Source: a virus. From it: DNA of 64,000 nt. Every line of letters starts with the position of its first letter. The first letter of the stretch is position 1. The position numbers and the translations under genes are program-made. Under the pieces are notes generated by a model. That model was not told the origin of the DNA. It saw nothing but the letters and a program-made list of their open reading frames with translations, and did not search any database. The stretch covers positions 1-64,000 of the IMG/VR virus record IMGVR_UViG_3300036770_001972. One strand, 5' to 3'. This document shows positions 23,618 through 56,708 of the stretch, in pieces.

Positions 23618-24973
23618 TCAGAAGAGGTTTGTGACCTTGACGATGCGGTAGTAGATGTTCTTGCGCGTAGCATCGGCCGAGTACGGATCCGAGACCGAAG
23701 AACCGTTCTTGATCGTCGCAAACGGGTTGTTGACCAAGCCGTAGCGAGTCTTGAAGCCGATCTTGGGCTGGAAGGAGTTCTCACCGACTGCGCGTACCAT
23801 CTGTAGCGGAACATAGGGGCAGTAGAACATGCCTGCGTCATAAGCAGACGATCCCTTATAGCCTGCCATGAAGAAGTCATGAGAGGTTGTCATGGACGAA
23901 TAGGGATCGATGTAGACGCGCAACTTGCCGTTGAGGACACCCGCAAAGGTGTTGCCTGTGTCATCAACATTGAGGTTGGTGCTGAGGGCGGGGGCGTAGT
24001 CAAGAACGCCTGCCATGCTCAGAGCCGAGGCAACATCCGAGGAGCAGACAATGAAGTTGCCCTTTCCACGGCGGGTTTCCTTGGCGATCTGATTGCACTC
24101 ACGCTCAATCTGGAAGAGCAGACCCTTGAACTTCTCAACGCTCCAACGACCGTTGGAATCGACATTGAGGTCGAAGACACCCTGTGTCTGAGTCGTGCCG
24201 CTCTTGGCACCCAACTTGGCGTTGGCGTAGATCACGCGAACGACTTCGCGGTTGATCTCAGCGAGGATTTCGCTGGACAGGATGTTGGCGAGTTCGGTCT
24301 CAGCGTCGAGGCCGTGGATCGCCTTGAGATCCTGAGCGAGTTCCATCGTGTACTCAGCCTTAAGAGCGCGGGTCTTTGCTTCGACCGTTGTCTTCTCAAT
24401 GCTGAACGCCATCTGCGGGAATGGGTTCGAAGCGGAGTCACCGAGGGCTTCACCCTTATAGGTGCTGTAACCCTTGGTACCAACGACACCCGAGGGAGTG
24501 CCGAGACCGTTTACGGGATCAACGCCACCAACCTCAAAGGGATCGGTGTTGTAGACACCCGCAGCGGTTGTACCCGTGGAACCCGATCCACCGAAGGCGG
24601 TGTCGGCTTCCTGATACAGAGCCTCAGGGCCGTTCTGATCGATGTAGCGGGAGCGCATTGCGAAGATAAGCCCAGTTGGGCCGCTCATCGGCTGCACACC
24701 GCAGATGTCGTAAGCAATGAGGTTTGGCATTGCGCGACGAACGAGCGAGATGAGGATGGGATCCCAACGAGCAACATTGCCGCTGTTCTCCTGTCCAACA
24801 GACTGTGCGCCGCTGAAGTTCGTTGGCGCAGACTCGCGGAGGTACTGCTCTTGGTTCTCCAAGAGCATGGTTGTAACTGCCTTGCGGTAGTTGTCCTTGA
24901 TTGCGGGAAGATCCGCATGCTCAAGAATTGGTTGCCACTTCTTCTGAAGTGCTTCGGAAATGGTGAGTTCCAT
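23618..24973 (-). CDS. gp23: major capsid protein
   Basis: PILISLVRRAMPNLIAYDICGVQPMSGPTGLIFAMR, KAEYTMELAQDLKAIHGLDAE, FQPKIGFKTRYG. Confidence 0.98.
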   Translation of the reverse strand: MELTISEALQKKWQPILEHADLPAIKDNYRKAVTTMLLENQEQYLRESAPTNFSGAQSVGQENSGNVARWDPILISLVRRAMPNLIAYDICGVQPMSGPTGLIFAMRSRYIDQNGPEALYQEADTAFGGSGSTGTTAAGVYNTDPFEVGGVDPVNGLGTPSGVVGTKGYSTYKGEALGDSASNPFPQMAFSIEKTTVEAKTRALKAEYTMELAQDLKAIHGLDAETELANILSSEILAEINREVVRVIYANAKLGAKSGTTQTQGVFDLNVDSNGRWSVEKFKGLLFQIERECNQIAKETRRGKGNFIVCSSDVASALSMAGVLDYAPALSTNLNVDDTGNTFAGVLNGKLRVYIDPYSSMTTSHDFFMAGYKGSSAYDAGMFYCPYVPLQMVRAVGENSFQPKIGFKTRYGLVNNPFATIKNGSSVSDPYSADATRKNIYYRIVKVTNLF

Positions 24974-25016
24974 TTAAGTTTCTCCTTGGTAGTAACTGGT
25001 TAAAGACTAACTTTGA

Positions 25017-25023
25017 TATTTAG
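25017..25023 (-). promoter_or_regulatory. T4-type late promoter (gp23)
   Basis: CTAAATA. Confidence 0.7.
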
Positions 25024-25035
25024 CGTAAGTGCTAT

Positions 25036-26162: not shown

Positions 26163-26179
26163 TGGTTGAAACACTTGGC

Positions 26180-26836: not shown

Positions 26837-27289
26837 TTAGATCGTGAACTCAAGAATGATGGTTCCGTTTGCGGTAGTGAATTCGTTTCCACTATTATCT
26901 AGGCTTATTGTGATGGTGCCAGACTCCAGTTGTGTCTTCACGCCTGTCCTTCTATGGGAAAGCCTAGGTTCAAAGAAAAGTTCACTATCAATTCCTGTTG
27001 CAAACAGACAATCTCCTGCATTCTGCCCGTATGTCCCTGCCGTGTATGTGTTTCCCCAACGGGCAGTCCAATACCATCCCGCAACAGGAGAACCATTGGA
27101 TGTTGACATCACAGAGTGAAGTTTGGCCGTGCCGTCCGCTGTAAGACCGAAATTCTCAGGATCCAAGAATGCAGATCCTGTCAGCCCTATCGTGACACTT
27201 TCTGCTGTTGCTGTGGGGACTTCACTAGCGATGATCTTGGTGACATATCGCTTGTTTGTTCTGAGAATGTCCTGTTTAATCAGAGGCAT
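26837..27289 (-). CDS. putative virion protein, paralog A
   Basis: KRYVTK...GLTGSAF...GTIILEF. Confidence 0.7.
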   Translation of the reverse strand: MPLIKQDILRTNKRYVTKIIASEVPTATAESVTIGLTGSAFLDPENFGLTADGTAKLHSVMSTSNGSPVAGWYWTARWGNTYTAGTYGQNAGDCLFATGIDSELFFEPRLSHRRTGVKTQLESGTITISLDNSGNEFTTANGTIILEFTI

Positions 27290-27675
27290 CAGAGTACAAA
27301 TTCAAGAATGATCGTGCCTGTCACGGTTGTTGGCGTGATTGTCATAACTCCTGTTGGAGTCGTTGCATTATTCGGAATTGTGAATCTCTCAAAGACAAAA
27401 TCGATGTTTCCCGCAGCAGCAGAATCGAAAGCAGTAGCACCAGGCGTTCCAGCCCATGTCAAGGTGTAACGATTTCCGCAAGAAGACTTGATCGATGCCA
27501 ACTTAGCGGTGGTTGCGGTGATGCCGTCTGTCATTGCAATCACATCACCCGTCAATCCGTTGGCGAATGCAGATCCCGTGACTCCGAATGAAATCGCTGT
27601 GTTATGGGCATTCAACTGAAACTTCTTTACAAGTCTCTTCTGAGTTCCCACCAATGTTTGTTCTGTGTAAGCCAT
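27289..27675 (-). CDS. putative virion protein, paralog B
   Basis: KRLVKK...GVTGSAF...GTIILEF. Confidence 0.7.
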   Translation of the reverse strand: MAYTEQTLVGTQKRLVKKFQLNAHNTAISFGVTGSAFANGLTGDVIAMTDGITATTAKLASIKSSCGNRYTLTWAGTPGATAFDSAAAGNIDFVFERFTIPNNATTPTGVMTITPTTVTGTIILEFVL

Positions 27676-31511: not shown

Positions 31512-33410
31512 TCAGGCACCGACCTCGCTGAAGTTCACGCCTGTACGGGTGGCGATGAAGTTCAACTGGATGAAGTTGATGCTGCGATTCGGCTTGATGT
31601 AGATATCAGCGACGAACCGATTGCTATCGATAACTTCAGGTGTGTTGTTCTTCTCGTCACATACGACCTTGAAGTCGATGAGACCACGCCGAGCCTGAAC
31701 ATCACGCATGAACGGCTCAATGAGAGAACGGAACTGCGCCCGTGTGAAGGCATCGTTGAACTCAAAGAGGCTGTACTTGGCAGCGGTGGAGATTGCCTTC
31801 TCAAGCACGATGAACAGACGGCGCACATTGATGCGGTCGAATGCAGATGGCTTGGAAAGAGCAGTCTTGTCGCCGTAAAGGACGGTGCCTTCACCCGAGA
31901 AGGTGGCAACTGGATTGATGCCATTCTTGTACAGGGTGTCGCGGGAAGCCTGACGGGGTTGGAAAGCCAACTTGATCACCCCACGAACCTGACCACGGTT
32001 GAACCCTGCGGGGCTGTACCAAGGATCGAAGGTTGCATCGGTACGAGCGCAGAGACCCGCGATGTCGCCGTTCAGCGGCACCCAACGGTTCTTGTCGTTG
32101 TAGATGTCGTACATGTACTTGTAACCGCTGTCGATCACGCAGTACGAGGACGAACCGATGTTGTTGCGGTACTGTAGCGAACGATCCAACTTGACCTGAT
32201 CGGTCTCGTTTGGATCCTTGTTGGGTACCGAGAAGAAAGCAACGCAATCCTTACGGGCATCGACAATGTCTTTGATCGAAGGAGCGACGAGATCTGCAAC
32301 TGCGGCAGTTGTATCGTTGCTGTTCGGAGTAAAGGTCTTGTCGGGGCCGCCGATGAGCAGATTGCAGTCAACAGTCTCTGCGTCTGCGAAGAGGCGATAT
32401 CCCTCAGGATCCGAATCCGAATCCTGACCGAAAGCGATCTTCATGTAATCGGTGAGATCGGCCGTCTTTCCATCCTTACCGCCCTTGAGTTGCCATACGC
32501 CTACTCCGAAGGTTCCGTTCGTAGCGGTGACACCCGAAGTTGCGGCAAGAGATGCGGTGGTGTAGTACTTGAGCGAATCGCCCGTTCCCCATGCACCCGT
32601 CGAACCTCTGAAAAGATCATTGAAGGATGTATTGGTTGCCTTATTGACGGCAGCAATGTACTTCGATGTACGGTTGATGCGGTCAACATAGTAGTTGCTC
32701 GTACCATCCGAAGAAACAACACCAGGGAGGAAGGACAATCCTTGGAACTTCTCAAGAATCGTGTTGCGAGTTCCCGAGAGAAGACCATTCTTGTCGATGA
32801 CGATCAAGTGGAACTCGTCGTTTGCGCCGCCCAAGTCAGAAACATAAGTCGTGCTATTTGGCTTGGCATCGAACTGGGTTCCGTATACCCAATCGCTGAA
32901 ATCATGTCCCGCAGCGGTATAGCCCGAAGCAGTAATGCCTGCACCTGTGACAGCGACAGTTGCGCCACCGCAGATCTGAACTTCTAGAGTGTTGCCGAGT
33001 GCGCCTGGATAACGAGCAACGAACGAGCCAATCTTGGTGACATCGGCAAACTCAAACTTATCGTCGTTTTCGATCATTGCGGCATCGGAATCCCAACCGC
33101 TGTCGCTAGTGGCACCTGTGTAGCCATATCCGTTCGCATTGACCATCTCGTCAATCTTGGCACGAACGACCTGAAGGTTGTTGCCGTATCCAAGGAAGTT
33201 GGCGGCAGGGAACCACCACTCAGCGACATTGTCATCGGGTGCGCCGAATAGTTGTACGAGGTTGTTCTCGCTGTCAACGAGGATGCGCTTGTTGCATGGG
33301 CCCCAATTGAATAGACCCACGATGCCTGCATTGGTTGTGGCAACAGCAGGGACGATTGTGGTCAAGTCCTTCTCTGTTACATTCACGCCTGGGGAAAGTT
33401 GGAATGCCAT
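31512..33410 (-). CDS. gp18: tail sheath protein
   Basis: LSPGVNVTEKD, WYSPAGFNRG, AFDRINVRRLF, KPNRSINFIQLNF. Confidence 0.98.
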   Translation of the reverse strand: MAFQLSPGVNVTEKDLTTIVPAVATTNAGIVGLFNWGPCNKRILVDSENNLVQLFGAPDDNVAEWWFPAANFLGYGNNLQVVRAKIDEMVNANGYGYTGATSDSGWDSDAAMIENDDKFEFADVTKIGSFVARYPGALGNTLEVQICGGATVAVTGAGITASGYTAAGHDFSDWVYGTQFDAKPNSTTYVSDLGGANDEFHLIVIDKNGLLSGTRNTILEKFQGLSFLPGVVSSDGTSNYYVDRINRTSKYIAAVNKATNTSFNDLFRGSTGAWGTGDSLKYYTTASLAATSGVTATNGTFGVGVWQLKGGKDGKTADLTDYMKIAFGQDSDSDPEGYRLFADAETVDCNLLIGGPDKTFTPNSNDTTAAVADLVAPSIKDIVDARKDCVAFFSVPNKDPNETDQVKLDRSLQYRNNIGSSSYCVIDSGYKYMYDIYNDKNRWVPLNGDIAGLCARTDATFDPWYSPAGFNRGQVRGVIKLAFQPRQASRDTLYKNGINPVATFSGEGTVLYGDKTALSKPSAFDRINVRRLFIVLEKAISTAAKYSLFEFNDAFTRAQFRSLIEPFMRDVQARRGLIDFKVVCDEKNNTPEVIDSNRFVADIYIKPNRSINFIQLNFIATRTGVNFSEVGA

Positions 33411-36460: not shown

Positions 36461-36463
36461 CGA

Positions 36464-46500: not shown

Positions 46501-46897
46501 TTCTCTTTGGCGTTCCCGCAGGCCCCTGTCTTTGGTCGCTGAAATCGCTGAAGATCACATAATCATCGATGGCAGGATTGGCAGAAGCACCAGTACCAAG
46601 ATCCTCTAGCCGAATGGCATCGATGATTACCTTGTTATAGTTGTTCGTAAACGCAGGAACACCAATGCCGATACCCGCACCAGGGTTGACTGAAATTGTG
46701 ACAACGCCGTTGTAATAGCCACCCGAACAGCCCGTTTCTCTGATCAAACCGCCATTGGTCGGGCCTACAGCAACATCGTAGACATTGATTGCGCTTGCGG
46801 CTTCAATGATCTCATTCGTTCTGTCGAACCATGTGTTGAAGGTATCGGACAGGACGAGTGGCTGAATGTTAATCAGGTCTGCTGCTGTACAGGACAT
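43502..46897 (-). CDS. tail fiber protein with tail-collar domain
   Basis: DTFNTWFDRTN, NADQLDG, PIGAVQPFAG...GWLLCDG, C-terminal LPGGILIQWG. Confidence 0.8.
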   Translation of the reverse strand: MSCTAADLINIQPLVLSDTFNTWFDRTNEIIEAASAINVYDVAVGPTNGGLIRETGCSGGYYNGVVTISVNPGAGIGIGVPAFTNNYNKVIIDAIRLEDLGTGASANPAIDDYVIFSDFSDQRQGPAGTPKRTTANRMLPNTVVFGDSGNGDFTIQGNVNIIGNLNVQDDISYIDSNDLRIEDKLIELAYARYVQFTISGSSLTGTSFDVGSTAFYHDTINPPTEANATTIGQVSNWSVSPSGTTGTIRLGAFSEGGVGDIIATGKLVVTGTAYQQTVTVSGDVVDGTDFYSDTLLQPAGIRVKGLQGDKDWVWLKSAPIGSVDWYGFFSNTNIGVTGADAHVVSSKFASYGYGAADNTYTYLGFNGTETPFTKYQVGQQLTMWHSATGEAGITFGVVYSGSTGPAVYPNIPVTNWVKWFNADQLDGAHALTTATPWSIPVSLDDGRLHEDWIRADAIRKRFCQTGHAFQVGHVLRFDLDGTLTFAQANTVPNAEAIGMVESVSGDCFSLVTKGFIKGLTGSGGLTGLYPLATGQAYYLHPDVGGRLISDPDGGAYEVQAGEVRKAIFLATGYDSGYVINYTGVIVGDTPSDLVYLRSVAPIGAVQPFAGAIDQIPDGWLLCDGKAKSQNEWNDLYSAIGQNHYADATVYDASTITIDGDTRGLAVGDALRLVWTTGSASVIVATVTEATRRVSFASSPFTEVVEDTEIKVYGRSVGSTVGRSVFFLPDMRRRTAFGVSNGTGLSGSGVISPAISLGTVGGEEEVILLENNIPPHTHSLNSVVQTDQFSTSYGSSTAETGGLQGTGVEPSPFSIYPPYVGLHWIIRSKKGLQATILTGHNHDNYYIRYDINHTVEGGAARTLTEADRVQFRTNARVLRRDADDTFHGTLTVTGNINIQGLGGADSVDAIVAGGVSADYYVGNRLFINESARISLSGSNSLMITGGSTCNVRMYPALNFGLTGPTAFYDQNQRDADSRNLVIDYKTGEVSCRPMHNVSSAAPPTSTAGYPEGFVWYQTGTGGSQSSAYSDQENGYTELPGGILIQWGFVPRAELTNSSGNLYKSITWPTPFATVAWSCNVTPRYSQFNGAGDSYGQIAAMTANGGVIVLGKASEGNLNYLIGASWMAIGKKP

Positions 46898-46904: not shown

Positions 46905-47108
46905 TCACCGTTCCTCAATGAGTTTTGACATGAGTGCCTTTAGTTCAGACAGTTCATGTTCCAACCTATTTATCCGATCCTTCTGAGCCTTGGCTTCTTG
47001 CTTTCGTCTCTCATATGCCTTTATCGAATCCTTATCCGTGGAAAGCAACGCCCCCGAGCGCATGTCTCTTACCAATTTTTCATTCTGCACAGGGATCTTG
47101 TGTGTCAT
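46905..47108 (-). CDS. small coiled-coil protein
   Basis: LVRDMRSGALL...INRLEHELSELKALM; typical position in cyanophage-like genomes. Confidence 0.75.
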   Translation of the reverse strand: MTHKIPVQNEKLVRDMRSGALLSTDKDSIKAYERRKQEAKAQKDRINRLEHELSELKALMSKLIEER

Positions 47109-50100
47109 GTTGCGATCATCCGTAGATTGCGGATCTTTGGAACTGCGGCACCGTTGTCATCTCCGAACATCACTACCTTGATTGAGAATGTCTTGAACTT
47201 CTGAAGAGTCGTGTATCCAATGTTTGTGAAAGTGACCTCGCGGAAATCCGAGTCGGAGGACGAAACCCCTGTATCTGTGGATGTCAGTTCGACATAGTTC
47301 ACATTGTCATAGTCGGGTTCACCAACAGGAACTGGACGGACGAACACCTTGACGGACGAGGCATTTGTGTTGCCCTTCTTCGGATTGCACAGCGACATCG
47401 AAACCGTAATGTTTTCGGCTTCCATACCACTCTCCAAGGTGACCTTCTTGCTGATGTAACGGGCGGCTGTGCGGTAACCCGAAGCAACCCCCTCGTTTGT
47501 CGGCTCCAATTCTCCGTTGTACGATCCACTTGAACTGTCTGTTACTGTTTGATTGTTGATCGTGTTGCTTACGGTGATGAAACTGGACTTCTGTAGATCA
47601 AAGATCGGAGACACATACCCGTTCGAACTTGCGGACAGGGTGGCTACAATCTCCGATACATTGCCTTCGCCCGTAGACGAGGAAACTGTGTGATAACCAC
47701 TCGCAGGAATGGTATTCTTGTTTGGAGTAAGGCTTGCGTAGTTCACGGGTGGAGAAGCCTGAACCTCAACTGCATATGCAATTCCCGTATCTTCGGGAGT
47801 CGAATCGACTGCATTCAATCTGAACTCGTTGATGTTCAGATTTGCAGAGCCGCTTGAGATTGCAGAATTCTGCACCGTTACGGTACCGCTGCTGCTGAAC
47901 TTACAGACCTTTAGGCGCAATGCAAGAGTTTCGTTTTCGCTCTTTGCATACTTGCCTGAGTTCTGTGGCTTGAACAGCGACCGCATCATCGGCTGCTTGA
48001 TCACACCGATCTTTGGATCCTCTTCGGATGCTCTGATGATTGTGGATCCAATCGATCCCTTCAGAAGGGCATAATTCGAAGAGTTTGTTGAAACGCAGAC
48101 CGCATACTCCTTCGCGGGAAGAAGATAGACGGGAGTGCTGAACGGGAAGTTCGTTGCATCTGCATCACCGTCTTCGATTAGATCCACCGTAGAAATGCTT
48201 CCATCGTTGTACTTGACAGATGTGGCAAACGGCAGCACCTTCGATGGGTGTGGGTATCCCGAAACGGTGGGTCGAATCTGCACAGTCACGGGGATCGTGC
48301 TAAGTGCATCAACACTCTCAAAGTAGAGATCGACCGACTTTAGGAAGATACCTTGGGGATACTTGACGGGATCGACATAGAATGTCTGCGACAGCGGCTC
48401 AGAATAGCCACGAATCTCACCCGAACTTGTAAGCATTTCTGATAGGTTCGAAACTACCTTTTCAGTCTTGACTGACTTTCTTCGGGTTTCGGCAATACGG
48501 GTTGCCAACAGACCATCCTCTGACAGAGAATCATATGCACCTTCGACTGCATATGTGGCTTCTGCTGCCATCGTGGAGGAGGCGACAGAATCCGCAGAGG
48601 CAACATCCGTGATGCGAATGTTGTGCCGTCCGACCAAGAAGTTCTGTTCATATACGCCTGTCGAAGCGTTTGGATAGTTGAACAGATACTTGATCGATGC
48701 TTCACCATTTTCAGTAGTAACTTGACTTCCACCCGTGCAGTATGGGGTGACATTCATGTCATCGCAGAAGACATAGAATGTGGTGCTTGGCTTGAGTCCC
48801 TTGGCGGTGAGGGTGATTTCCTGCTGACGAGCAACGGGCAGAACATCACGGGCTACCGTCTTGTTTGCCACAATCTTCTTCATGCTCTCAGGAGCAACAG
48901 AAGAGTTAACGCTGTTCAAAGACAATCCTTCAGCCTTGGCAGACAGCAACTTGTTTCGGACTAGATTGGGGCGATTGTTCTTGGAGTTCTGATTCTCCTT
49001 GCCGAACCAAATCGATTCCCAATCATTGAACCGAGTGCCGAATCCATAGTTGGAGTTGACTTCCCAGTTGTCATTCTCGCCCTCTACATTGACACGAACC
49101 TTTGGCTGCTTCGTGGTGTCGTACCATGTATCCGCTGCGGGGCTGATCGACAGATGCCCCATGTAGTTGATTACATTGAACGGATTGATCTGAATCGACT
49201 CGCTTGCCAACAGATGGGAGATTTCAGGAGACTGTGTGAAGGAGAGGGTATAGACACCATCGGTGGCATTGCCAGTAACCGAGGATACAACTGCTCCCGT
49301 CAGTCCATATGAGCGAGTAGAGAACGGTGGACGCAGTTCGTTGTTTTCATAATCAACGCTTGCGGCAAACATCGGATCTGCATTGTCAGCGACTGCGTGT
49401 CCCTTGAACTGATCGACCAAGATGCCGCGCTTTGGCATCTCATCTCCGTTTTCATCACGGATGCTCTTTGCCTTTGCTTCTTGCTCTAGAAGGCTAAGTG
49501 TTGTGTAGTACTCAACAGCCTCAATGCGCTTCTCAAGATCACCAATATCCCGCATCGTGTATCGCTTGTTCTCAACATAACGAATCGATGCGTCATTGCT
49601 GTTGAATGTGTACGGATTGACCTGTACGGTGTACAAAGTCATCGCATTCGGATCGTCCGCAGGAATGTCGGCGTTGAGAGACGGCGTTCCCGAGATGACT
49701 GCAAAATTGCGATCCCGAGTCAAGACGATCTTGTCTGTTCTTGGGAGATAATGCGTATAGGTGAAGTCGTTATCGTTTGCTGCCGAATTCGTGGGAATCC
49801 ACGGCGTAGCCATGATATCTCCACTCAGGCTTCTGTCGGGACGGAAGTCAATGCAGTCGCGCAACTTGTACTGTGTGCCCGTGGACTTGCTCGTATAGGT
49901 CGGGATGTTCTCATAATCGGGATACGAAGCAACCGTATATGCACCATATACATTTTCGTGAGAGTAGTACTTGAAGGTTGCGTAGAAAGGCCCAGTAACG
50001 CCTGTAACCCCTGCGCCGAGAGTCAGGCGAGACCAATCATAGAACGAGTCGCGCTGACCGTTGTCTAGAGTGAAATACGAGTTCAGGCTGATCCCCGAAC

Positions 50101-52057
50101 TTGCACCCTTTGTTCCCGTGATTGACAGAAGTTCGATGACATCCGTGTATCCGTTCAGGAAGAGAGTATCAGATGTGCTGCCTCTCTCGTCACCTGTCAA
50201 CGAAGACCCCCACGCGCCCGTGAGCGTGAGGCTTACTGTCTGTTCTGTCTTGTCGCGGATGTAGTTCACCATAGCCGTGGAATCATTGCCTGGTTCCTGT
50301 GTGGCGTATGTGAATACCTTTGTTCCTGCCGCAGCATTTGTAACAGTAACGGATAGTTCCGTGACATTTGCACCACGGGCGGCAGTTCCTGCAAGAACCT
50401 TGCCAGTTCCGTCGAAAACCAACACATCCGAGTCGGGAAGGCTTACAGTCGTATTGATCGGGAACTGAAGACCAGGGTCATATGAGTTGATCGTGTATGT
50501 GAATGACGATGTCGGTGCTGTTCTTGAATCATATCCAACGATTGCATAGTCACCCGAAGAGAACGAGGTGACTCCCGAACCTTCAGGAACCTGATACAGA
50601 AGAATGTCTTGACTCTCGTTTTCCAATCCCGCACTTCCCGTGAGGGTAAACATGTGCGCCGTCAAACTGGGAAGGTGAATACGAACTGTTTCTTCGAATG
50701 ATGCCGTACCCGACATCTTGATGTCATACAACGACAAGTTGTAGACACTAGCCGAATATGGCTCCACCCAACGCATTCTTGCAGAGCCGATGACATCAAG
50801 AGCCGAACCGCTTGCACCGCGAGACAGGTTGATTGTTGGGTGTTTGGTGGGATCTTCAATTGGGTTAAACGATCCCGTGATGCCCGAGAATTCAACCTTT
50901 GTGTATGGGCCAATCGATCTGTTGAAATCGCGGGTGACTGTTCTTTCGTGGGACTCCCCACGGGCACATGGGATGTTCAATTTTGTCTTTGCCTGAGTTT
51001 CAAACTCATATCCAAAGACATATGCTTTGCCCGAGGACAATTCCGCCTTCAGTACGGTGTTTCCGCCGCTAGAAGTTGGGCCGTTCAAAGTGAGTTCGAA
51101 CGGATTGACTGTGTAGTTGCCCGATTCGTCGTATGTCCGTCTTGCAAGGGTATCCTCAAGGACTGCATAATCGGGGTACTTTTCGATCTTAACGATGTCG
51201 CCATCGACAACTCGCATGAACTCAATGAATCCAACGCGAGAGAAGTTGTCAACGGAACTCGTATCTGATGCTGTGAATCCATTCTGAGCGACATTGAGTT
51301 CGATCTTGAATCGATCCGAGCCTGGTGCGGCATAGTTGTAAAAGCCGAAAGCGGGATCGTTCAATGATGTATCGTCAGTCGCGGTGACGAAACTCTTGTC
51401 AACAGAGAAGCCAATACGGGTCGTTGGGTTGTTGTAGTTACGGATTAGGCTACCCGCGCTGCCCGTGAGGGTATATGCACCAATCGACTGTGAATCATTC
51501 AGTACGAAATAGCCTTCGACAAATCGAACGCCTCGTTCAACTGAGGCAACCAACGCATCACCAATGAAGCAGCAAGAAGGCCCCGTGATCGATGCTGTGA
51601 TCCCAACACCGTTTGATGCTGTTGCGGCGATGACATCGTTTGCATCGAAAGTCGCCCCGCCCTCCATGTACTCAAAGAAAAGAACAGGTCTGTTTTCCTC
51701 CAAAGTGCTTCCCGAAAGACCCACTTCGGCATGAACCACACGCGCCCGAGCCTTGCCCGAAGAACTAATGACAGCACCAATGAAGTCGGCAGGATCCTCT
51801 GTCGATCCTCCCAATTCAACCTTTGCGTACTTGACGCGATTTTCGCTGATCTGACCATCAAGAACGATGCTTCCCTCTTCGAAAACATGGGATCCCATTC
51901 TTTCGATTTGGTTCTGAAGGAGCGTCTGAATCTGCGTCAGTTCTCTTGCCTGAACACCGTAGCCAGGGCGGAACATCAACCGAAGGAACTTCTTGTCCTC
52001 CGAGAAGTCATCGTAATAGGGGTCTACATTGAATAGGCTTGGGTCGTATGACGGCAT
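47105..52057 (-). CDS. large virion structural protein (DUF4815/VrlC-like)
   Basis: PYYDDF, FRPGYGVQARELTQIQ, LARRTYDESGNY, RYTMRDIGDLEKRI, PLSQTF. Confidence 0.88.
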   Translation of the reverse strand: MPSYDPSLFNVDPYYDDFSEDKKFLRLMFRPGYGVQARELTQIQTLLQNQIERMGSHVFEEGSIVLDGQISENRVKYAKVELGGSTEDPADFIGAVISSSGKARARVVHAEVGLSGSTLEENRPVLFFEYMEGGATFDANDVIAATASNGVGITASITGPSCCFIGDALVASVERGVRFVEGYFVLNDSQSIGAYTLTGSAGSLIRNYNNPTTRIGFSVDKSFVTATDDTSLNDPAFGFYNYAAPGSDRFKIELNVAQNGFTASDTSSVDNFSRVGFIEFMRVVDGDIVKIEKYPDYAVLEDTLARRTYDESGNYTVNPFELTLNGPTSSGGNTVLKAELSSGKAYVFGYEFETQAKTKLNIPCARGESHERTVTRDFNRSIGPYTKVEFSGITGSFNPIEDPTKHPTINLSRGASGSALDVIGSARMRWVEPYSASVYNLSLYDIKMSGTASFEETVRIHLPSLTAHMFTLTGSAGLENESQDILLYQVPEGSGVTSFSSGDYAIVGYDSRTAPTSSFTYTINSYDPGLQFPINTTVSLPDSDVLVFDGTGKVLAGTAARGANVTELSVTVTNAAAGTKVFTYATQEPGNDSTAMVNYIRDKTEQTVSLTLTGAWGSSLTGDERGSTSDTLFLNGYTDVIELLSITGTKGASSGISLNSYFTLDNGQRDSFYDWSRLTLGAGVTGVTGPFYATFKYYSHENVYGAYTVASYPDYENIPTYTSKSTGTQYKLRDCIDFRPDRSLSGDIMATPWIPTNSAANDNDFTYTHYLPRTDKIVLTRDRNFAVISGTPSLNADIPADDPNAMTLYTVQVNPYTFNSNDASIRYVENKRYTMRDIGDLEKRIEAVEYYTTLSLLEQEAKAKSIRDENGDEMPKRGILVDQFKGHAVADNADPMFAASVDYENNELRPPFSTRSYGLTGAVVSSVTGNATDGVYTLSFTQSPEISHLLASESIQINPFNVINYMGHLSISPAADTWYDTTKQPKVRVNVEGENDNWEVNSNYGFGTRFNDWESIWFGKENQNSKNNRPNLVRNKLLSAKAEGLSLNSVNSSVAPESMKKIVANKTVARDVLPVARQQEITLTAKGLKPSTTFYVFCDDMNVTPYCTGGSQVTTENGEASIKYLFNYPNASTGVYEQNFLVGRHNIRITDVASADSVASSTMAAEATYAVEGAYDSLSEDGLLATRIAETRRKSVKTEKVVSNLSEMLTSSGEIRGYSEPLSQTFYVDPVKYPQGIFLKSVDLYFESVDALSTIPVTVQIRPTVSGYPHPSKVLPFATSVKYNDGSISTVDLIEDGDADATNFPFSTPVYLLPAKEYAVCVSTNSSNYALLKGSIGSTIIRASEEDPKIGVIKQPMMRSLFKPQNSGKYAKSENETLALRLKVCKFSSSGTVTVQNSAISSGSANLNINEFRLNAVDSTPEDTGIAYAVEVQASPPVNYASLTPNKNTIPASGYHTVSSSTGEGNVSEIVATLSASSNGYVSPIFDLQKSSFITVSNTINNQTVTDSSSGSYNGELEPTNEGVASGYRTAARYISKKVTLESGMEAENITVSMSLCNPKKGNTNASSVKVFVRPVPVGEPDYDNVNYVELTSTDTGVSSSDSDFREVTFTNIGYTTLQKFKTFSIKVVMFGDDNGAAVPKIRNLRMIAT

Positions 52058-52069: not shown

Positions 52070-54469
52070 TCAGAAGTCGATGACTATCTTTATCTCTTCC
52101 TTTTGTTCAAAACCGCGTTGAATCGGCTTCATATTCTGTATGTATAGGGTCTCTCCCGAACGATACTTGAGTTCCCCTGTGTGTACTATTTGTTGGACTT
52201 GAGCGGACGCGGTGGTTGACTCATCCACGAAGTAGGGCGTTGTCATGCCAACATAGAACTTACCCTGCGTTCCAGTTACGCGAAGGGTGCCTGTTGTGCC
52301 TGATGCCCCCGCCGACCAATCCATTACATATCCATTTGCCGATCCCGTGTTTCCGTAAGCAAACGCGGTATAGTCATCTTCTCTGAATGACTGTGAATCG
52401 AATTGATTATTTCCGTCATACAACATGACTAGTGATGTTGTCTGATCGTAGACGCTGCTTCCATCCGTTGATGTTGGAACTCCACTCTTGCAGCAATCTG
52501 AATGTGCCTCAAGAATACGAATGACGCTATCAACCGCTACAATCTCTGCCACGCCACTAAGCCCCGTTCCCACGAACCCGCTATACAGAGGATCTACCTG
52601 AGTGAGCCGTTCTCCCTGCTTGAATGTGCCCTGTGGTTCTTCCAAGTAGAGATATCCCGATTTATTCGACCCCAAAGACGGTTCCCATGCATAGACCTCT
52701 CCCGTTGCGCGGGAGGGGGGAGCAGATGTTTCGTAGTTTCCGACACCGATGGCGATGTATCCGCGAGTGAAATCTGTGCCGTTTCCGAGGAATGCAGCAT
52801 CCGTTGGTGCCACTCTGAGTCGAAGAAGGCGGCGACCTTCGGTTCCCGCTACTGTCTTTTCACGAACATTCATGATGGTCAAGCCGTTTACGGTTCCACC
52901 AAACTTGAACTCACCATCTCTGATGTTCGTAAGCACCAATTCACTTGTTCCGCTGTGTCCTGAAGCACCGCTGCGCCAAGAGACGATTTCTCCATATGCT
53001 CCGCTATATCCTGCTCCAGTTGCCTGTTGTGCTGTTGCTCCTGCGATAAAAGATCCCGACACCCCGCTATCGTAGAAGTTGATTCGGACATGCTTTTCCT
53101 CTAGCAGAGGATTGAGGATCAAGCCAAACTGACGGTATTCGTTTTCCGTGCTTACCTTCTCATTCTCGCTGCGGAAATAGTCCTTGACGATCATGATGGA
53201 GGATGCGCCAAGTTCCTTCACGGGATCCGAACCATGTCCATTTGGGGGAGACATAACAGGTTCGGCCAAGTCCTGCAAGAAGACCTTTTCTGTAGGAACA
53301 TCCAACCCCTTGACGAATTCCAAGGATGCAAATGTGTAGTTCTTGCCGCCATCAACCAACTCAATCGAATCGATCAATCGGATAGTCTCAAAGAACTCCG
53401 TGCAAGCGGTAACGCCGTTTGCACCAAGAACATCGGATCCCGCAGTCAGACCAAAGCGAACAGAGACTTCTGCGCTTGTACTGTATGGGTTCGATGTGTT
53501 TACATTTGCCTCACCATCACCAACTACCTTGATGTAAGGAACGATAGAGAATGTGCTTGGACTTCCACCACCCGAAACACTTGCTGAGAACGGGTCTGCA
53601 ACCGTGACAAATGCGGAACTGCCGTCTGTTGGGGTAAACGATGTAATGACCCGCCGCTGACCCAATCCCTGACCGTTGTCAATCGATAGAACCATGTCCT
53701 CATAGTATCCCTCTTGGAGGAATAGGAACTTGGATGCCAAGGTAATTCCAGTTGCTCCCAACGCAACATCCGCAACTACCGTATTGCTTGCGGATGGGAA
53801 TACGCAATTTGTGGAGACAACGAAGGGCTGAACATCGGTGTTCATCTTGATGAAGGCGATTTCGCCGTCAACAGCATCCTCCTGAACTCTCCATTGCAAG
53901 ATTCTCTCGTCGTTGCTGCGGAGATATTCAACAAACTCCACGGGCATGTAGCCGATGGAATCTCCCTGTGTCTTGGTAAGGAACTTTCTCTTAGACTCAG
54001 GAATCTGATAAAGGAACTTCCAACGATAGCCGTCTGAAAGCCGCCTGATCCGCGAGTCTGTGTGCATCGGTGCCACAAGAGACGGTGAGTTGTTTGCATT
54101 GTCAATGCACTTGTATACTCTCTCCTCGTCAACCAATGCATAAAATGGTGCGGGGTTGAGGTCATCGAACAGGTCGATGTTGTCGCGGTAGGCGGTGTAT
54201 ACAGCCCCTGGAGTCCAATCATAGCGACGAACGACCAAGGAAACATCCGAGCGATCAATTCTCTTGTGGGCGAAGATGCCTCTCCAAAAGTCCGTATCGT
54301 CTCTTACCGAATCAACACTTCGGGGGGGATTCTCATCGTCTGTCCACGCAACAACCTTGCCGATTGAGAGAAACAGATTGTTTTCATCAACATCGCCATA
54401 GATGTCAAGAAGAGAACGAGCGGCAATCCGCTTGTGGTTTTGACGAAATGGGTCGCAGGATCCAGCCAT
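52070..54469 (-). CDS. gp8: baseplate wedge subunit gp8-like, with insertions
   Basis: VYKCIDN, DGYRWKFLY, GHGSDPVKEL, YRQFGLI, EEIKIVIDF. Confidence 0.85.
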   Translation of the reverse strand: MAGSCDPFRQNHKRIAARSLLDIYGDVDENNLFLSIGKVVAWTDDENPPRSVDSVRDDTDFWRGIFAHKRIDRSDVSLVVRRYDWTPGAVYTAYRDNIDLFDDLNPAPFYALVDEERVYKCIDNANNSPSLVAPMHTDSRIRRLSDGYRWKFLYQIPESKRKFLTKTQGDSIGYMPVEFVEYLRSNDERILQWRVQEDAVDGEIAFIKMNTDVQPFVVSTNCVFPSASNTVVADVALGATGITLASKFLFLQEGYYEDMVLSIDNGQGLGQRRVITSFTPTDGSSAFVTVADPFSASVSGGGSPSTFSIVPYIKVVGDGEANVNTSNPYSTSAEVSVRFGLTAGSDVLGANGVTACTEFFETIRLIDSIELVDGGKNYTFASLEFVKGLDVPTEKVFLQDLAEPVMSPPNGHGSDPVKELGASSIMIVKDYFRSENEKVSTENEYRQFGLILNPLLEEKHVRINFYDSGVSGSFIAGATAQQATGAGYSGAYGEIVSWRSGASGHSGTSELVLTNIRDGEFKFGGTVNGLTIMNVREKTVAGTEGRRLLRLRVAPTDAAFLGNGTDFTRGYIAIGVGNYETSAPPSRATGEVYAWEPSLGSNKSGYLYLEEPQGTFKQGERLTQVDPLYSGFVGTGLSGVAEIVAVDSVIRILEAHSDCCKSGVPTSTDGSSVYDQTTSLVMLYDGNNQFDSQSFREDDYTAFAYGNTGSANGYVMDWSAGASGTTGTLRVTGTQGKFYVGMTTPYFVDESTTASAQVQQIVHTGELKYRSGETLYIQNMKPIQRGFEQKEEIKIVIDF

Positions 54470-54476
54470 TGCTTTG

Positions 54477-54483
54477 TATTTAG
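54477..54483 (-). promoter_or_regulatory. T4-type late promoter (gp8)
   Basis: CTAAATA 7 nt before ATG. Confidence 0.65.
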
Positions 54484-56708
54484 AGTGCTTCCTCTACACT
54501 ATCAGAAACTGTTATTTCGGGTGTTGGTGGCGGTACGAATTCATACGCAAAGAGGTGGATCTTCCTTGTGCCAGGGATCAATCTGTCCTGTTCATCCAAG
54601 ATATCCATTCGAAGGGTGTGTCTTCCATCCTTGACCAACTTCAAAACTGTTTGACGGCTGTTGATCGAAAGTGTGCTTCGGAGTTTGTTGTCCAAGTAGA
54701 CTTTGATGCTCTTTGCCTTGTAGTAGGAAAGATTCCCTTCATTTTCGATTGTAAACTTCACAAGAAGTGTCCTGAAGAAGTTGTAATCGCTTTCTGATGT
54801 ACCAACTGGGACTTTGGGATTGTTGGCGATCAATCCCTCTGCGGGTGTGTTGATTGCAATCTTTGGCACGGCGACATTCACGAAGTTTTCGTTTCGGCAA
54901 TCAAACTCTTGTCCCTGTGGCATGTTGAAGAATGCTCGGGCGGTGATCTTTCGGAACTCGCTGTTTTCATCGTACTCAAGCAATGCATACTTGAAGTCAT
55001 AAGGCTCGGTGTAGTAAAGCCCATTTGGGCAACGATTGATTTCCCCGTTGCAAGGCTCTGAGACATCTGCCGTGATATTGAGCGGCGTAACTGTGGATAG
55101 AAGATCTCCTGCCCATTTGCCAATATCCTCTATTCTCCATCCCTCTTTGCGATATGACCACTCTGACCACCCGCCGTTTTGGGACAGGAAGTCATTGATT
55201 TGTGTATTCCAAATCTTTGCAATGTGGTAGCCACGGGAGACCATCTTGTTGGGGTGAGGATACACAATCCAAAACGGATCGGCATTTGGGAAATCATCCT
55301 CGTATAGGATTCCACTCGTTGCACCGACAAATGCAATGTTGTTTGTCATCGGATTGCCTTGCAAAGCCAATCCATTTCCAGTTCCACGAATCAAAATATC
55401 GTGTGTATCGGGGGAGTATCCCGCAGCAGTCAGACCGCCCCCCGTCACGCCTGTGAGAAACCACAGGGAAAGGTCATCGAAGGTTTGGAATGTGTATGGC
55501 ACATAGTGTCCAATGATCGGCACATGATATGACATGAGAGCGGATGCATTCTGTAAGTCTGCCTCCGCGCACCGCTTGATGAGAACAGACCCAAACATGG
55601 CTGTTCCAATTGGGTGTACCAATCTACGAATGATCTCTCTGTATTTGTCAACTACCACCTCAGTCTTCAGAACATACGACCAGTTTTGGTAGAAGTGATT
55701 ATCCTGAAGAACTTTGTTTGTGCTGAGTCTGCCGTCATTGTTGGCGTAATATCCCGCAGACTGACAAAGGGCACCGACAGTTACCGTTCCGCTGAATCCC
55801 GAACCACGAACTGTATCGATGGCAATCGTGGGCGCGACCTTGTAGTTGATTCCGAAGTCATTGATGTCGATCTTTCGAATCGATCCCGACCCATCGACTT
55901 CGACAACTGTTCCAACAGCCTGTTGACCGCTGTCTCCGCTTGCCGCAACAAATCTGACTCTGTCGCCAATTTCATAGTCGCTGCCGCCATTAGAAATCGA
56001 CAACGACGAGATAACGCTATAGACAGAAACCTCATGGAATGACTCTTCGCCATCCGTAAAATCAATACCTAGGTTTCCCGCAGTAAAAGTTCCGTTACGA
56101 CCCGAAATCAAGAGTTCTGCTACTGGAAAGTTGTCGATCTGATAGACATTGACATCGACAACACGGGCGGTTGCCAAGATAGCCCCGCTTGCACTCTTCT
56201 GTGTGATGTTATTTCCTGCTGCGCGATAGATCGTGTCGCCCAATGCATTCGATATTCTAAGGTAGTTGTTCTGCGTCCATCTTCCCGAAGAAGACCGCAA
56301 GATGTCCGTCTTGGGATAGTAGAACTCTACCGATGTGTCGTACAGAATACGAAACAAGAACTCGTATGACTTTTCGGTTCCCTTGGCAAGATAGAACTGC
56401 TTGATGTTCTTCATCAGCCGCCGTGGATCAACTGGCTGATTGGTGGTCTTGCTGATTGCAAGGCTCTCGGGGAAGTTCAGTAGGTACTGGGTGCGAAACT
56501 CCTCAACAAACTGATCCAAAGTGGTATCGATGTCGGGGATGTCGTGCATCGCCATGGGCGAAAGCACCTTGCCATCGTTTCGCTTCAATCCCAACCATTC
56601 ATAGTATGCAGACAGAAATGCCACAAGCGTAGGATGATCCACCCGTACAAACTCAGGGAGTCTGTCGGAAACCAAGTGGGAAAGGTTGCGATCACCGTCA
56701 ATGCTCAT
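54480..56708 (-). CDS. baseplate wedge subunit gp7-like
   Basis: LPEFV, FYLAKGTEKS.EFLFRILY, QDNHFYQNWSYV, LVHPIG. Confidence 0.75.
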   Translation of the reverse strand: MSIDGDRNLSHLVSDRLPEFVRVDHPTLVAFLSAYYEWLGLKRNDGKVLSPMAMHDIPDIDTTLDQFVEEFRTQYLLNFPESLAISKTTNQPVDPRRLMKNIKQFYLAKGTEKSYEFLFRILYDTSVEFYYPKTDILRSSSGRWTQNNYLRISNALGDTIYRAAGNNITQKSASGAILATARVVDVNVYQIDNFPVAELLISGRNGTFTAGNLGIDFTDGEESFHEVSVYSVISSLSISNGGSDYEIGDRVRFVAASGDSGQQAVGTVVEVDGSGSIRKIDINDFGINYKVAPTIAIDTVRGSGFSGTVTVGALCQSAGYYANNDGRLSTNKVLQDNHFYQNWSYVLKTEVVVDKYREIIRRLVHPIGTAMFGSVLIKRCAEADLQNASALMSYHVPIIGHYVPYTFQTFDDLSLWFLTGVTGGGLTAAGYSPDTHDILIRGTGNGLALQGNPMTNNIAFVGATSGILYEDDFPNADPFWIVYPHPNKMVSRGYHIAKIWNTQINDFLSQNGGWSEWSYRKEGWRIEDIGKWAGDLLSTVTPLNITADVSEPCNGEINRCPNGLYYTEPYDFKYALLEYDENSEFRKITARAFFNMPQGQEFDCRNENFVNVAVPKIAINTPAEGLIANNPKVPVGTSESDYNFFRTLLVKFTIENEGNLSYYKAKSIKVYLDNKLRSTLSINSRQTVLKLVKDGRHTLRMDILDEQDRLIPGTRKIHLFAYEFVPPPTPEITVSDSVEEAL

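What the first reader, a model, noticed from the sequence alone, without database searches (positions are those of the whole stretch)
23618..56708. Candidate virion-wide protein glycosylation system: a G-x-[T/S]-[G/A] motif in exposed structural proteins plus a late GT2-TPR enzyme
Seen: unrelated virion proteins carry the same short motif, often in insertions or extensions. Examples: gp23 GSTG/GTTA; gp18 GYTG, GITA, GYTA, GSTG, GVTA (all in the variable N-terminal half); gp15 tail GITA..GWTG; gp14 GSTA, GATA; the 128-aa protein at 27289 GVTG, GLTG, GITA, GATA; the 113-aa protein at 43146 GYTA, GATG, GPTA; gp8 GATG, GLTA, GVTA, GATA, GNTG, GTTG; also gp7, both fibers and the DUF4815-like protein. 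By eye it is nearly absent from portal, protease and terminase (only the Walker A GKTA). A GT2-TPR gene with its own late promoter sits among the fiber genes. Known: GT2-TPR enzymes include protein/peptide glycosyltransferases (SunS, GmaR types), and virion glycosylation is documented in some actinobacteriophages. Inference: the motif is an O-glycosylation sequon that coats the particle.
Basis: partly seen in the sequence, partly recalled or inferred. Interest (0 to 1): 0.92.

Follow-up and report, generated by a model that had tools for sequence, protein, structure and literature searches.

The report
Phage virion threonine-glycosylation motif and enzyme
An uncultured T4-like phage and its relatives have peppered the outward-facing loops of their capsid, sheath, neck, baseplate and fibre proteins with the short motif Gly-x-Thr-Gly/Ala and carry a late-expressed enzyme of the type known to attach sugars to exactly that motif, so the particles are probably sugar-coated, though no chemistry has been done.

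Summary
G-x-T-[GA] is an ordered motif: 40 copies against 13.8±3.7 under 15-residue block shuffles in the non-fibre late proteins. The reverse and 14 other arrangements sit near 1. GxTG and GxTA rank 1 and 2 of 8000 a-x-b-c patterns in this contig and in two relatives that carry the glycosyltransferase, even without collagen-run proteins. In T4, pelagiphage Mosig and two environmental T4-like genomes lacking the enzyme (one complete, one 83%), the motif is at chance.

Enrichment is confined to exposed proteins (36 vs 6.0) and fibres (75 vs 18.6). Internal or non-virion late proteins show 3 vs 3.8.

The gene at 41842-43080 is a GT2 domain plus a TPR-like helical-repeat domain. Its best structural matches are SunS and ThuS, its best sequence match GmaR. 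It follows a CTAAATA late-type box.

Homologs in 37 of 80 bacterial loci lie beside (G-x-T)n collagen-like genes. C. difficile SgtA, of the same architecture, O-GlcNAcylates Thr in GPT repeats (PMC7157674).

Glycosylation itself is untested, and the enzyme-bearing phages form one clade. The scan has noted this theme before on other DNA. I rate it a new variant of a known kind.

The parts
41842..43080 (-). GT2 + TPR-like protein glycosyltransferase (412 aa). GT-A domain about residues 39-202 with invariant D125-A-D127; helical repeats 212-410; disordered Thr/Ser-rich N-terminus 1-34.
   Evidence: Pfam PF00535 at 40.9 bits against a cut-off of 23.3. PDB sequence hits GmaR 4e-9, ThuS 3e-6, SunS 1e-4. 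AF2 model pLDDT 87. Foldseek top hits SunS and ThuS over full length, E 4e-15, next family at 6e-7. Invariant columns from alignment A1.
43102..43108 (-). CTAAATA late-promoter-like box 22 nt upstream of the GT start codon
   Evidence: Sequence read. The motif occurs 12 times against 2.2 expected in the window. It also lies just upstream of MCP, tube, gp19, gp13, fibre A, gp8 and fcl.
43146..43487 (-). 113-aa LtfC-like beta-sandwich protein, always next to the GT. It has three motif sites (GYTA 34, GATG 59, GPTA 69).
   Evidence: PHROG 1084/3304. The motif is kept in 78-100% of 27 clade orthologs while x varies: Thr in the motif is 0.95 conserved against 0.60 outside. The ortholog in GT-less G004 has 0 sites.
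23618..24973 (-). Major capsid protein. It has a mini-collagen patch GGSGSTGTTA at residues 128-137 in the hypervariable insertion region, plus the family-wide GPTG at 98.
   Evidence: PHROG 138. Alignment with T4 gp23, Mosig and IMG/VR homologs. 3 GxT[GA] vs 0.5 expected; 77 distant homologs average 1.4.
26837..27675 (-). Two small adjacent proteins of 150 and 128 aa, of unknown role, carrying 2 and 4 motif sites. They look like paralogs by eye (GLTGSAF and GVTGSAF), though BLAST did not pair them.
   Evidence: There is no ortholog in GT-less G004.
31512..33410 (-). Tail sheath. Six motif sites at residues 96-317, none in the C-terminal core.
   Evidence: PHROG 23. The sites map to T4 gp18 residues 109-343, which are the solvent-exposed domains I/II. 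All are in predicted coil. Clade sheaths carry 4-7 sites, outgroup sheaths 0-2.
35603..37357 (-). gp15-like tail terminator and gp14-like neck protein. Motif sites lie only in their C-terminal parts (gp15 242-264; gp14 205-247).
   Evidence: PHROG 227 and 460 match only the N-terminal ~230 and ~200 residues. Sites listed. T4, Mosig, DLP_6 and G004 orthologs have 0.
38565..41789 (-). Fibre A (1074 aa) with a collagen-like stretch at 436-491, including GHTGATGATGETG
   Evidence: Pfam Collagen and tail-fibre PHROGs; sites.
43502..46897 (-). Fibre B (1131 aa), 13 G-x-[TS]-[GA] sites
   Evidence: Pfam Collar and Gp53-like_C.
47105..52057 (-). DUF4815 giant structural protein (1650 aa), 6 GxT[GA] vs 1.6 expected
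   Evidence: Pfam DUF4815. Clade orthologs carry 6-11 sites. The GT-less G004 ortholog has 3 vs 3.7.
52070..56708 (-). gp8-like (799 aa) and gp7-like (742 aa) baseplate wedge proteins. gp8 has 13 G-x-[TS]-[GA] sites, all beyond residue 238, outside the T4-gp8-like N-terminus.
   Evidence: PHROG 438 and 17744, Pfam Phage-Gp8 at residues 25-129. Sites. G004 orthologs have 0 vs 1.6 and 1 vs 1.5.
11650..13616 (+). Possible sugar-donor supply: a CTAAATA box followed by fcl-like (11675-12604) and gmd (12585-13616), a GDP-fucose pathway. The link to the GT is inferred only.
   Evidence: Pfam GDP_Man_Dehyd 409 bits and Epimerase; box at 11650. Present in GT+ G001, no match in GT-less G004.

Best explanation
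The gene at 41842-43080 encodes a soluble, late-expressed protein O-glycosyltransferase. It has a GT-A catalytic domain and a TPR-like substrate-binding domain, the architecture of SgtA, GmaR, SunS and ThuS.

Its acceptor is the Thr in G-x-T-[G/A], the unit of Thr-rich collagen-like repeats. In this phage clade that unit occurs as collagen-like runs in the fibres. It also occurs as single or double 'mini-collagen' sites that have arisen independently in flexible, outward-facing loops and C-terminal parts of at least ten unrelated virion proteins. These are MCP, sheath, gp15, gp14, gp8, gp7, DUF4815, the LtfC-like protein and two small proteins.

The enzyme would modify these proteins in the cytoplasm late in infection, so the assembled particle carries glycans over head, tail, baseplate and fibres.

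Shown here: the motif statistics, their restriction to exposed proteins, their absence in relatives without the GT, the enzyme's fold class, the late-type promoter box, and the family's linkage to G-x-T proteins. Inferred: that this enzyme uses these sites, which sugar it transfers, and what the coat does.
For: Motif statistics
- The motif is order-specific and top-ranked: z=7.1 against local shuffles and rank 1-2 of 8000 patterns.
- Exposed non-fibre proteins show 36 vs 6.0 and fibres 75 vs 18.6. Internal or non-virion late proteins show 3 vs 3.8, replication proteins 7 vs 4.1 and early proteins 5 vs 4.0.
- BLAST finds no shared domains among the motif-bearing proteins, so the sites recur independently.
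- Across clade orthologs the motif G is 0.80 conserved and T 0.73, against 0.52 for x and 0.57 for the flanks.

Comparison with genomes lacking the GT
- Three GT+ genomes (own, G001, G002) have GxTG and GxTA at ranks 1-3 even after proteins with collagen runs are removed.
- GT-less G003, G004, T4 and Mosig are at chance.
- IMG/VR loci of the GT clade give 438 vs 79.5, outgroup loci 107 vs 66.

The enzyme
- It is GT2 with an invariant DAD motif and has GmaR, ThuS and SunS as nearest solved relatives.
- It holds the same position in more than 50 loci. In L041 it is 57% identical where gp15 is only 37%.
- A late-type CTAAATA box precedes it.

Independent links between the family and the motif
- 37 of 80 bacterial loci with a 38-48% identical homolog hold runs of four or more G-x-T triplets within 8 kb, mostly 0.3-3 kb upstream. 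None of 90 GT-less phage loci do.
- Jumbo phage Tunturi_5 has a 36% identical homolog 4 kb from a fibre with 66 GxT[GA] sites.
- SgtA, of the same architecture, adds beta-O-GlcNAc to Thr of GPT repeats in vitro and tolerates Ser (PMC7157674).

Location of the sites
- Sheath sites fall in exposed domains and in predicted coil.
Against: - There is no chemical evidence of any glycan on any protein of this phage.
- The GT+ phages form a single clade, so GT presence and motif enrichment count as one evolutionary event. Any other clade-specific cause would correlate equally well.
- Known SgtA substrates are long repeat arrays. Activity on isolated sites inside folded proteins is assumed.
- The x position in scattered sites is often hydrophobic (L, V, I, Y), whereas collagen-type repeats use mainly A or P.
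- The split into 'exposed' and 'internal' proteins was partly post hoc for proteins of unknown location (p128, p150, LtfC-like, DUF4815).
- The MCP has only two or three clade-specific sites.
- Surface exposure could be judged only for the sheath, and loosely for the MCP.
Confidence: 0.62

Rival explanations
1. The enzyme glycosylates only the collagen-like fibre proteins and perhaps its neighbour, the LtfC-like protein. The scattered G-x-T-[GA] sites in capsid, sheath, neck and baseplate proteins are not substrates and have some other clade-specific cause.
For: Bacterial homologs and Tunturi_5 pair the enzyme with long repeat arrays, not with globular proteins. The GT sits between two fibre genes. 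SgtA's natural substrate is a collagen-like region.
Against: After every protein with collagen runs is removed, GxTA and GxTG still rank 1-3 of 8000 in three GT+ genomes and not in GT-less ones. The sites lie in exposed loops, and their G and T are more conserved than x. No alternative cause was found at the level of DNA, composition or shared domains. The SgtA paper tested single-Thr and single-Ser peptides and reports that Ser replacement still allowed glycosylation.
Confidence: 0.2
2. The motif is a structural or assembly signature of this clade, or the target of another modifying or binding factor, and is unrelated to the GT. The GT would then act on a host envelope glycan or other non-virion target.
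For: GT presence and motif enrichment share one clade, so the correlation counts as a single event. GT2 enzymes commonly build polysaccharides, and one source names homologs 'involved in cell wall biosynthesis'. In the relative G001, fcl-gmd and a further sugar cluster could serve a polysaccharide pathway.
Against: The fold matches SunS and ThuS over the full length far better than it matches polysaccharide GT2s, at 4e-15 against 6e-7. The protein has no membrane segment and has a TPR-like domain. Its family is linked to G-x-T proteins in distant bacteria and in an unrelated jumbo phage. The motif lies in poorly ordered coil rather than in regular structural elements.
Confidence: 0.12
3. The enrichment is a statistical artefact of G/A/T/S-rich low-complexity loops and of picking the motif post hoc.
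Against: Block shuffles of 10-30 residues keep local composition and still give 36 vs 8-10. The reverse and other arrangements of the same residues are near 1. An unbiased scan of all 8000 patterns puts GxTG and GxTA first in three genomes. GT-less homologs with similarly S/T/G-rich loops lack the motif.
Confidence: 0.03

Closest known systems
SgtA-BclA3 of Clostridioides difficile (exosporium collagen-like glycoprotein and its O-GlcNAc transferase; PMC7157674)
   Same: The enzyme has an N-terminal GT-A domain plus C-terminal TPR repeats, is soluble, and its gene lies next to the substrate gene. The acceptor is Thr in G-x-T-G (GPT repeats), and Ser is tolerated. The SgtA cloning primer encodes MITISLCMI, which resembles residues 37-45 (KTISLCMIV) of the phage enzyme.
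   Different: This is a phage, not a spore former. Besides collagen-like fibres, the putative acceptors are isolated one- or two-unit sites dispersed over many unrelated globular virion proteins. The donor sugar is unknown. Sequence homology to SgtA was not tested directly.
GmaR of Listeria monocytogenes (flagellin O-GlcNAc transferase; PMC9638930) and FlmG of Caulobacter (PMC7591256)
   Same: These are cytoplasmic glycosyltransferases with TPR modules that O-glycosylate Ser/Thr on the exposed part of a self-assembling surface polymer before assembly. GmaR is the best PDB sequence match (E 4e-9).
   Different: They have a single substrate family, the flagellins, with no defined short sequon. 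GmaR is also an anti-repressor. FlmG has the opposite domain order and a different GT type.
SunS and ThuS glycocin S/O-glycosyltransferases (PDB 7MSN, 7MSK)
   Same: They are the best full-length structural matches (Foldseek E 4e-15 to 3e-13), with a GT2 domain plus TPR-like helical domain acting on peptides.
   Different: They modify a Cys or Ser in one dedicated bacteriocin precursor. The NCBIfam SunS model scores 32 bits against a cut-off of 350, so the phage enzyme is not a member of that equivalog.
Virion glycosylation in actinobacteriophages (Freeman et al. 2023, Cell Host Microbe; cited in PMC12619734, not readable here)
   Same: Phage-encoded glycosyltransferases near structural genes glycosylate virion proteins. 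Glycans were reported at the C-termini of capsid and tail-tube subunits.
   Different: Different phage group and hosts. As summarised in PMC12619734, glycans are reported at the C-termini of two proteins, and I found no mention of a four-residue sequon spread over many proteins. The original paper could not be read here. In this phage the tail tube has no sites.

Membership tests
Glycosyltransferase family 2 (GT-A fold, Pfam PF00535) | Pfam model match above the gathering score | tested here: met
   40.9 bits against a cut-off of 23.3, residues 40-131; repeated on the genome.
Glycosyltransferase family 2 (GT-A fold, Pfam PF00535) | DxD metal/nucleotide-sugar binding motif | tested here: met
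   D125-A126-D127 is invariant in 20 homologs down to 30% identity.
GT2-TPR protein/peptide glycosyltransferases (SgtA, GmaR, SunS, ThuS type) | N-terminal GT-A domain followed by a C-terminal TPR-like helical repeat domain in one soluble chain | tested here: met
   AF2 model at pLDDT 87 has strands and helices at 39-202 and ten helices at 212-410. Foldseek aligns about 390 columns to SunS and ThuS and also hits consensus TPR proteins.
GT2-TPR protein/peptide glycosyltransferases (SgtA, GmaR, SunS, ThuS type) | Detectable sequence similarity to characterised members | tested here: met
   GmaR 4e-9, ThuS 2.9e-6, SunS 1e-4. SgtA itself was not available for comparison.
GT2-TPR protein/peptide glycosyltransferases (SgtA, GmaR, SunS, ThuS type) | Gene adjacent to the gene of its protein substrate | tested here: met
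   In the phage the gene lies between two fibre genes and next to the LtfC-like protein. In 37 of 80 bacterial loci the homolog lies beside G-x-T collagen-like genes.
GT2-TPR protein/peptide glycosyltransferases (SgtA, GmaR, SunS, ThuS type) | Demonstrated sugar transfer to Ser, Thr or Cys of a protein | not testable with these tools
   This needs an enzyme assay or glycoproteomics.
SunS-family peptide S-glycosyltransferase (NCBIfam TIGR04195 equivalog) | Score above the curated equivalog cut-off | tested here: not met
   32.2 bits against a cut-off of 350.
Bacterial/phage collagen-like proteins of the BclA type (Thr-rich G-x-y repeats) | Uninterrupted runs of G-x-y triplets with Thr at y | tested here: met
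   This is met for the fibres only: fibre A 436-491 matches Pfam Collagen, and the 831-aa fibre at contig 94.7-97.2 kb has 32 G-x-[TS]-[GA] sites, mostly G-x-T-G. It is not met for MCP, sheath, gp15, gp14, gp8, gp7 or DUF4815, which have isolated sites or two to three triplets.
Actinobacteriophage-type virion glycosylation | Glycans on C-terminal extensions of capsid and tail-tube subunits | tested here: inconclusive
   Candidate sites in gp15 and gp14 are C-terminal. MCP sites are internal and all three tube-like proteins have none. No glycan data exist.

The most novel reading that the evidence does not exclude
A widespread clade of uncultured T4-like phages runs a general, cytoplasmic O-glycosylation system with a defined four-residue sequon, G-x-T-[G/A]. 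Selection has repeatedly created this minimal collagen-type acceptor in surface loops of at least ten unrelated virion proteins. One SgtA-like enzyme, possibly extended by further phage glycosyltransferases and phage-made GDP-fucose or amino sugars, would then coat the whole particle.
Probability: 0.5. Interest if true: 0.85.

Novelty: new variant of a known kind. Interest (0 to 1): 0.8.

Why it matters
Bacterial and viral O-glycosylation is usually described as lacking a simple sequon. Virion glycosylation in phages has so far been shown only for some actinobacteriophages.

This case offers a precise, checkable rule: Thr in G-x-T-[G/A], on exposed loops, together with one identifiable enzyme. 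The clade is abundant in metagenomes, with thousands of close homologs of the enzyme.

If the rule holds, glycan-coated phages could be predicted from sequence alone, and exposed virion proteins of unknown function could be picked out. One example is the 741-aa protein at contig 85.3-87.5 kb, with 6 sites against 0.7 expected. It would also provide a portable enzyme-plus-tag pair for site-specific glycosylation.

It would bear on how phages shield or target their particles as well. The rule can be tested with synthetic peptides and recombinant enzyme, without culturing the host.

Tried and rejected
- **DNA-level cause.** Codons under the motif follow overall usage except for ACC depletion. That depletion is explained by total CCGG avoidance, which can only lower Thr-Gly codon options.
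- **Local low complexity.** Rejected by block shuffles and by arrangement controls.
- **A generic property of T4-like or beta-rich structural proteins.** Rejected by T4, Mosig, G003 and G004. DLP_6 gave 8 vs 3.2, with none in sheath, gp15 or gp14, on very small counts.
- **A shared mobile domain carrying the motif.** All-against-all BLAST of the late proteins found no links among motif-bearing proteins other than fibre to fibre.
- **Independent test in distant GT homologs of giant viruses and megaphages** (L045-L054, LR756501, LR745206). These were uninformative. The genomes have about 30% GC and almost no expected sites, and the homologs are often fused into 1300-1500-aa proteins.
- **Freeman et al. 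2023.** The paper could not be read because it is not held.
- **Finding clade members that lost the GT.** The gp15-anchored scan returned only short contigs that end before the GT position.
- **Per-residue solvent exposure.** It could not be computed, because model coordinates are not returned. Only secondary structure, pLDDT and domain mapping were used.

Full report
**What the window is.** The window is the first 64 kb of a 102-kb viral contig, about 57% complete. It belongs to a T4-like myovirus. The minus strand from 19.6 kb onward carries the late genes:
- tube-like proteins, MCP, scaffold, protease, portal, gp19 and sheath;
- TerL, TerS, gp15, gp14 and gp13;
- fibre A, a glycosyltransferase, an LtfC-like protein and fibre B;
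- a DUF4815 giant protein, gp8, gp7, gp6, gp25, PAAR and gp5 (PHROG and Pfam).

The MCP is at most 63% identical to that of any isolate; the nearest are pelagiphages and cyanophages. A further fibre cluster lies at 93-102 kb of the contig.

**The observation.** All the listed motif instances exist. Per-protein shuffles expect 32 G-x-[TS]-[GA] sites in the late block, and 80 are seen. A scan of all 8000 a-x-b-c patterns puts GxTA (28 vs 7.8) and GxTG (29 vs 9.0) first and second. GxSG is weak and GxSA is at chance. The motif is therefore G-x-T-[GA].

Many sites sit in G/A/T/S-rich patches, so I shuffled within blocks of 10-30 residues. The non-fibre late proteins, taken without selection, still give 40 vs 13.8±3.7 (z=7.1). 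The reversed motif and 14 other arrangements or relaxed versions of the same residues give 0.66-1.5, with one at 2.0. Codon use under the motif is ordinary. BLAST finds no domain shared by the motif-bearing proteins. The motif is real, ordered, at protein level, and recurs in unrelated proteins.

**Where it is.**

| Protein group | GxT[GA] observed | Expected |
|---|---|---|
| Exposed non-fibre proteins (MCP, sheath, gp13-15, gp7, gp8, DUF4815, LtfC-like, p128, p150) | 36 | 6.0 |
| Fibres and fibre-region proteins | 75 | 18.6 |
| Internal or non-virion late proteins (portal, scaffold, protease, three tube proteins, terminases, gp6, gp25, gp5, gp48, gp53 and others) | 3 | 3.8 |
| Replication and metabolism proteins | 7 | 4.1 |
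| Early-region ORFs | 5 | 4.0 |

The grouping is partly post hoc for proteins of unknown location.

- **Sheath.** Its six sites align to T4 gp18 residues 109-343. These are domains I/II, the solvent-exposed protease-resistant part (PMC3004832). An AF2 model places all six in coil, four of them in loops with pLDDT below 50.
- **MCP.** The clade-specific sites form a three-triplet patch, GGSGSTGTTA, in the hypervariable insertion region. GPTG at residue 98 is conserved in the environmental T4-like MCP homologs aligned (T4 gp23 itself has SPTG there) and should not be counted as specific.
- **gp15, gp14 and gp8.** Their sites lie outside the parts that match the T4 family profiles.

**Is it generic? 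No.**

| Genome or locus set | GT | Result |
|---|---|---|
| T4 structural proteins | absent | 13 vs 13.9 |
| Pelagiphage Mosig | absent | 15 vs 14.4 |
| DLP_6 (55% GC) | absent | 8 vs 3.2, none in sheath, gp15 or gp14 |
| IMG/VR loci with the GT, non-fibre orthologs | present | 438 vs 79.5 |
| IMG/VR outgroup T4-like loci | not seen | 107 vs 66 |
| Own contig, G001 (93% complete), G002, whole proteome | present | GxTG/GxTA rank 1 and 2 of 8000 (1 and 11 in G002); ranks 1-3 in all three once collagen-run proteins are removed |
| G004 (100% complete), whole proteome | absent | ranks 5590 and 4833 |
| G003 (83% complete), whole proteome | absent | ranks 2407 and 555 |

Ortholog by ortholog, this phage has 30 sites against 5.1 expected in MCP, sheath, gp15, gp14, LtfC-like, DUF4815, gp8 and gp7. 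G004 has 6 against 8.8. Within the clade, the G (0.80) and T (0.73) of the motif are more conserved than x (0.52) and the flanks (0.57). Site numbers also turn over.

**The enzyme.** The 412-aa product of 41842-43080 matches Pfam GT2 and has an invariant DAD motif. It models confidently (pLDDT 87) as a GT-A domain followed by ten helices. Its best PDB sequence matches are GmaR, ThuS and SunS. Its best structural matches are SunS and ThuS over the full length at E 4e-15, against 6e-7 for the next family, the teichoic-acid GT2s. It is not a SunS equivalog.

A CTAAATA box lies 22 nt upstream of the start codon. This box is over-represented at 12 vs 2.2 and also precedes MCP, tube, gp13, fibre A, gp8 and fcl-gmd. 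The gene keeps its place between the LtfC-like gene and fibre A in more than 50 IMG/VR loci. It is as conserved as TerL: in L041 the GT is 57% identical, against 37% for gp15. It is absent from all 2602 T4-like records in the phage isolate collection.

**Independent links between this enzyme family and G-x-T-G.**
1. *Tunturi_5.* Tunturiibacter jumbo phage Tunturi_5 has a 36% identical homolog 4 kb from a fibre carrying 66 GxT[GA] sites in GATGPTG-type repeats.
2. *Bacterial loci.* A scan of one genome per prokaryotic species found full-length homologs at 38-48% identity in Alphaproteobacteria, Streptomyces, Polyangiaceae, Chlamydiae, Holophagaceae, Acinetobacter, Bacteroidota and Planctomycetota. 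In 37 of 80 loci, runs of four or more G-x-T triplets lie within 8 kb, mostly 0.3-3 kb upstream. They belong to secreted collagen-like proteins whose y position is almost always Thr, for example 117 of 131 triplets in one protein. None of 90 GT-less phage loci (1.0 Mb) has such a run.
3. *SgtA.* C. difficile SgtA has a GT-A domain plus C-terminal TPR and is encoded next to bclA3. In vitro it adds beta-O-GlcNAc to Thr of GPT repeats, also on Ser-substituted peptides (PMC7157674).

**Mechanism proposed.** The phage makes an SgtA-like O-glycosyltransferase late in infection. The TPR-like domain presents extended or flexible G-x-T-[G/A] segments to the GT-A site. Fibres offer collagen-like arrays, and other exposed virion proteins offer one- to three-unit mini-arrays in loops and tails.

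Further glycan building is plausible. fcl-gmd sits behind a late box in this window. The near-complete relative G001 also has a DegT aminotransferase, an epimerase, a GT47-like protein, two small GT2 proteins and a deacetylase at 117.5-125 kb. Which sugar is used and what the coat does are not known.

**Limits.**
- No glycan has been measured.
- All GT+ phages examined are one clade, so the GT-motif correlation among phages is a single event. The bacterial and Tunturi_5 data support the enzyme-acceptor rule, not the virion-wide claim.
- Exposure was assessed only for the sheath and loosely for the MCP.
- SgtA homology rests on architecture and a nine-residue N-terminal resemblance.

**Earlier notes of this scan.** Earlier notes describe the same theme in other genomes and in relatives of this clade. 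I reached SgtA through my own literature search, and those notes agree.

**Verdict.** I rate it a new variant of a known kind, with interest 0.8.

Noticed in passing
whole contig (window 1-64000 and L001, L002): Three 4-base palindromes are totally absent from 102 kb: ACGT (0 vs 261 expected), AGCT (0 vs 232) and CCGG (0 vs 357). GGCC is depleted fourfold, and twelve 6-base palindromes are absent, including CGATCG, TGCGCA, TCGCGA, CCGCGG, GTCGAC and CTGCAG. GT+ relatives G001 and G002 also lack ACGT, AGCT and CCGG. GT-less G003 and G004 lack or nearly lack CCGG and are not among the most depleted for ACGT or AGCT. This is extreme restriction-site avoidance.
   Followed up: partly
window 11650-13616 (+): fcl-like and gmd genes (a GDP-L-fucose pathway) lie directly behind a CTAAATA late-type box inside the otherwise early region. 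They are present in GT+ G001 and not found in GT-less G004.
   Followed up: partly
L002:1281-3506 (-) = contig 85281-87506: A 741-aa protein with no PHROG or Pfam match has 6 GxT[GA] sites against 0.7 expected. By the rule found here it would be an exposed virion protein.
   Followed up: no
L002:9016-17704 (-) = contig 93-101.7 kb: A second fibre cluster holds an 831-aa collagen-like fibre with 32 G-x-[TS]-[GA] sites, mostly G-x-T-G. Several fibre-like proteins are also rich in the motif, and a methyltransferase-like gene (PHROG 15480) is embedded among them.
   Followed up: partly
L267:17538-L268:7291 (G001 117.5-127.3 kb): The near-complete relative carries a sugar-modification cluster absent from this incomplete contig. 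It holds a DegT/DnrJ aminotransferase, an NAD epimerase/dehydratase, a GT47-like protein, two small GT2 proteins and a polysaccharide deacetylase, next to a RecA-like gene.
   Followed up: partly
window 20558-22009 (-): A subtilase (Peptidase_S8, 142 bits) is encoded at the start of the late strand, with a CTAAATA at 20555-20561 that lies inside this gene and about 20 nt before the next gene's start (20576). This is unusual for a T4-like structural region.
   Followed up: no
window 22431-23524 (-): Two tandem tail-tube-like paralogs (35% identical) lie next to the MCP gene, in addition to the gp19-like tube gene at 30840-31466.
   Followed up: no
L163:21385-24803 (Tunturi_5 gp30-gp33): Four tandem proteins of similar size (about 281-285 aa), all annotated hypothetical and possibly paralogs (not compared), lie between the GT homolog and the collagen-like fibre in jumbo phage Tunturi_5. 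A nucleotidyltransferase gene abuts the GT.
   Followed up: no
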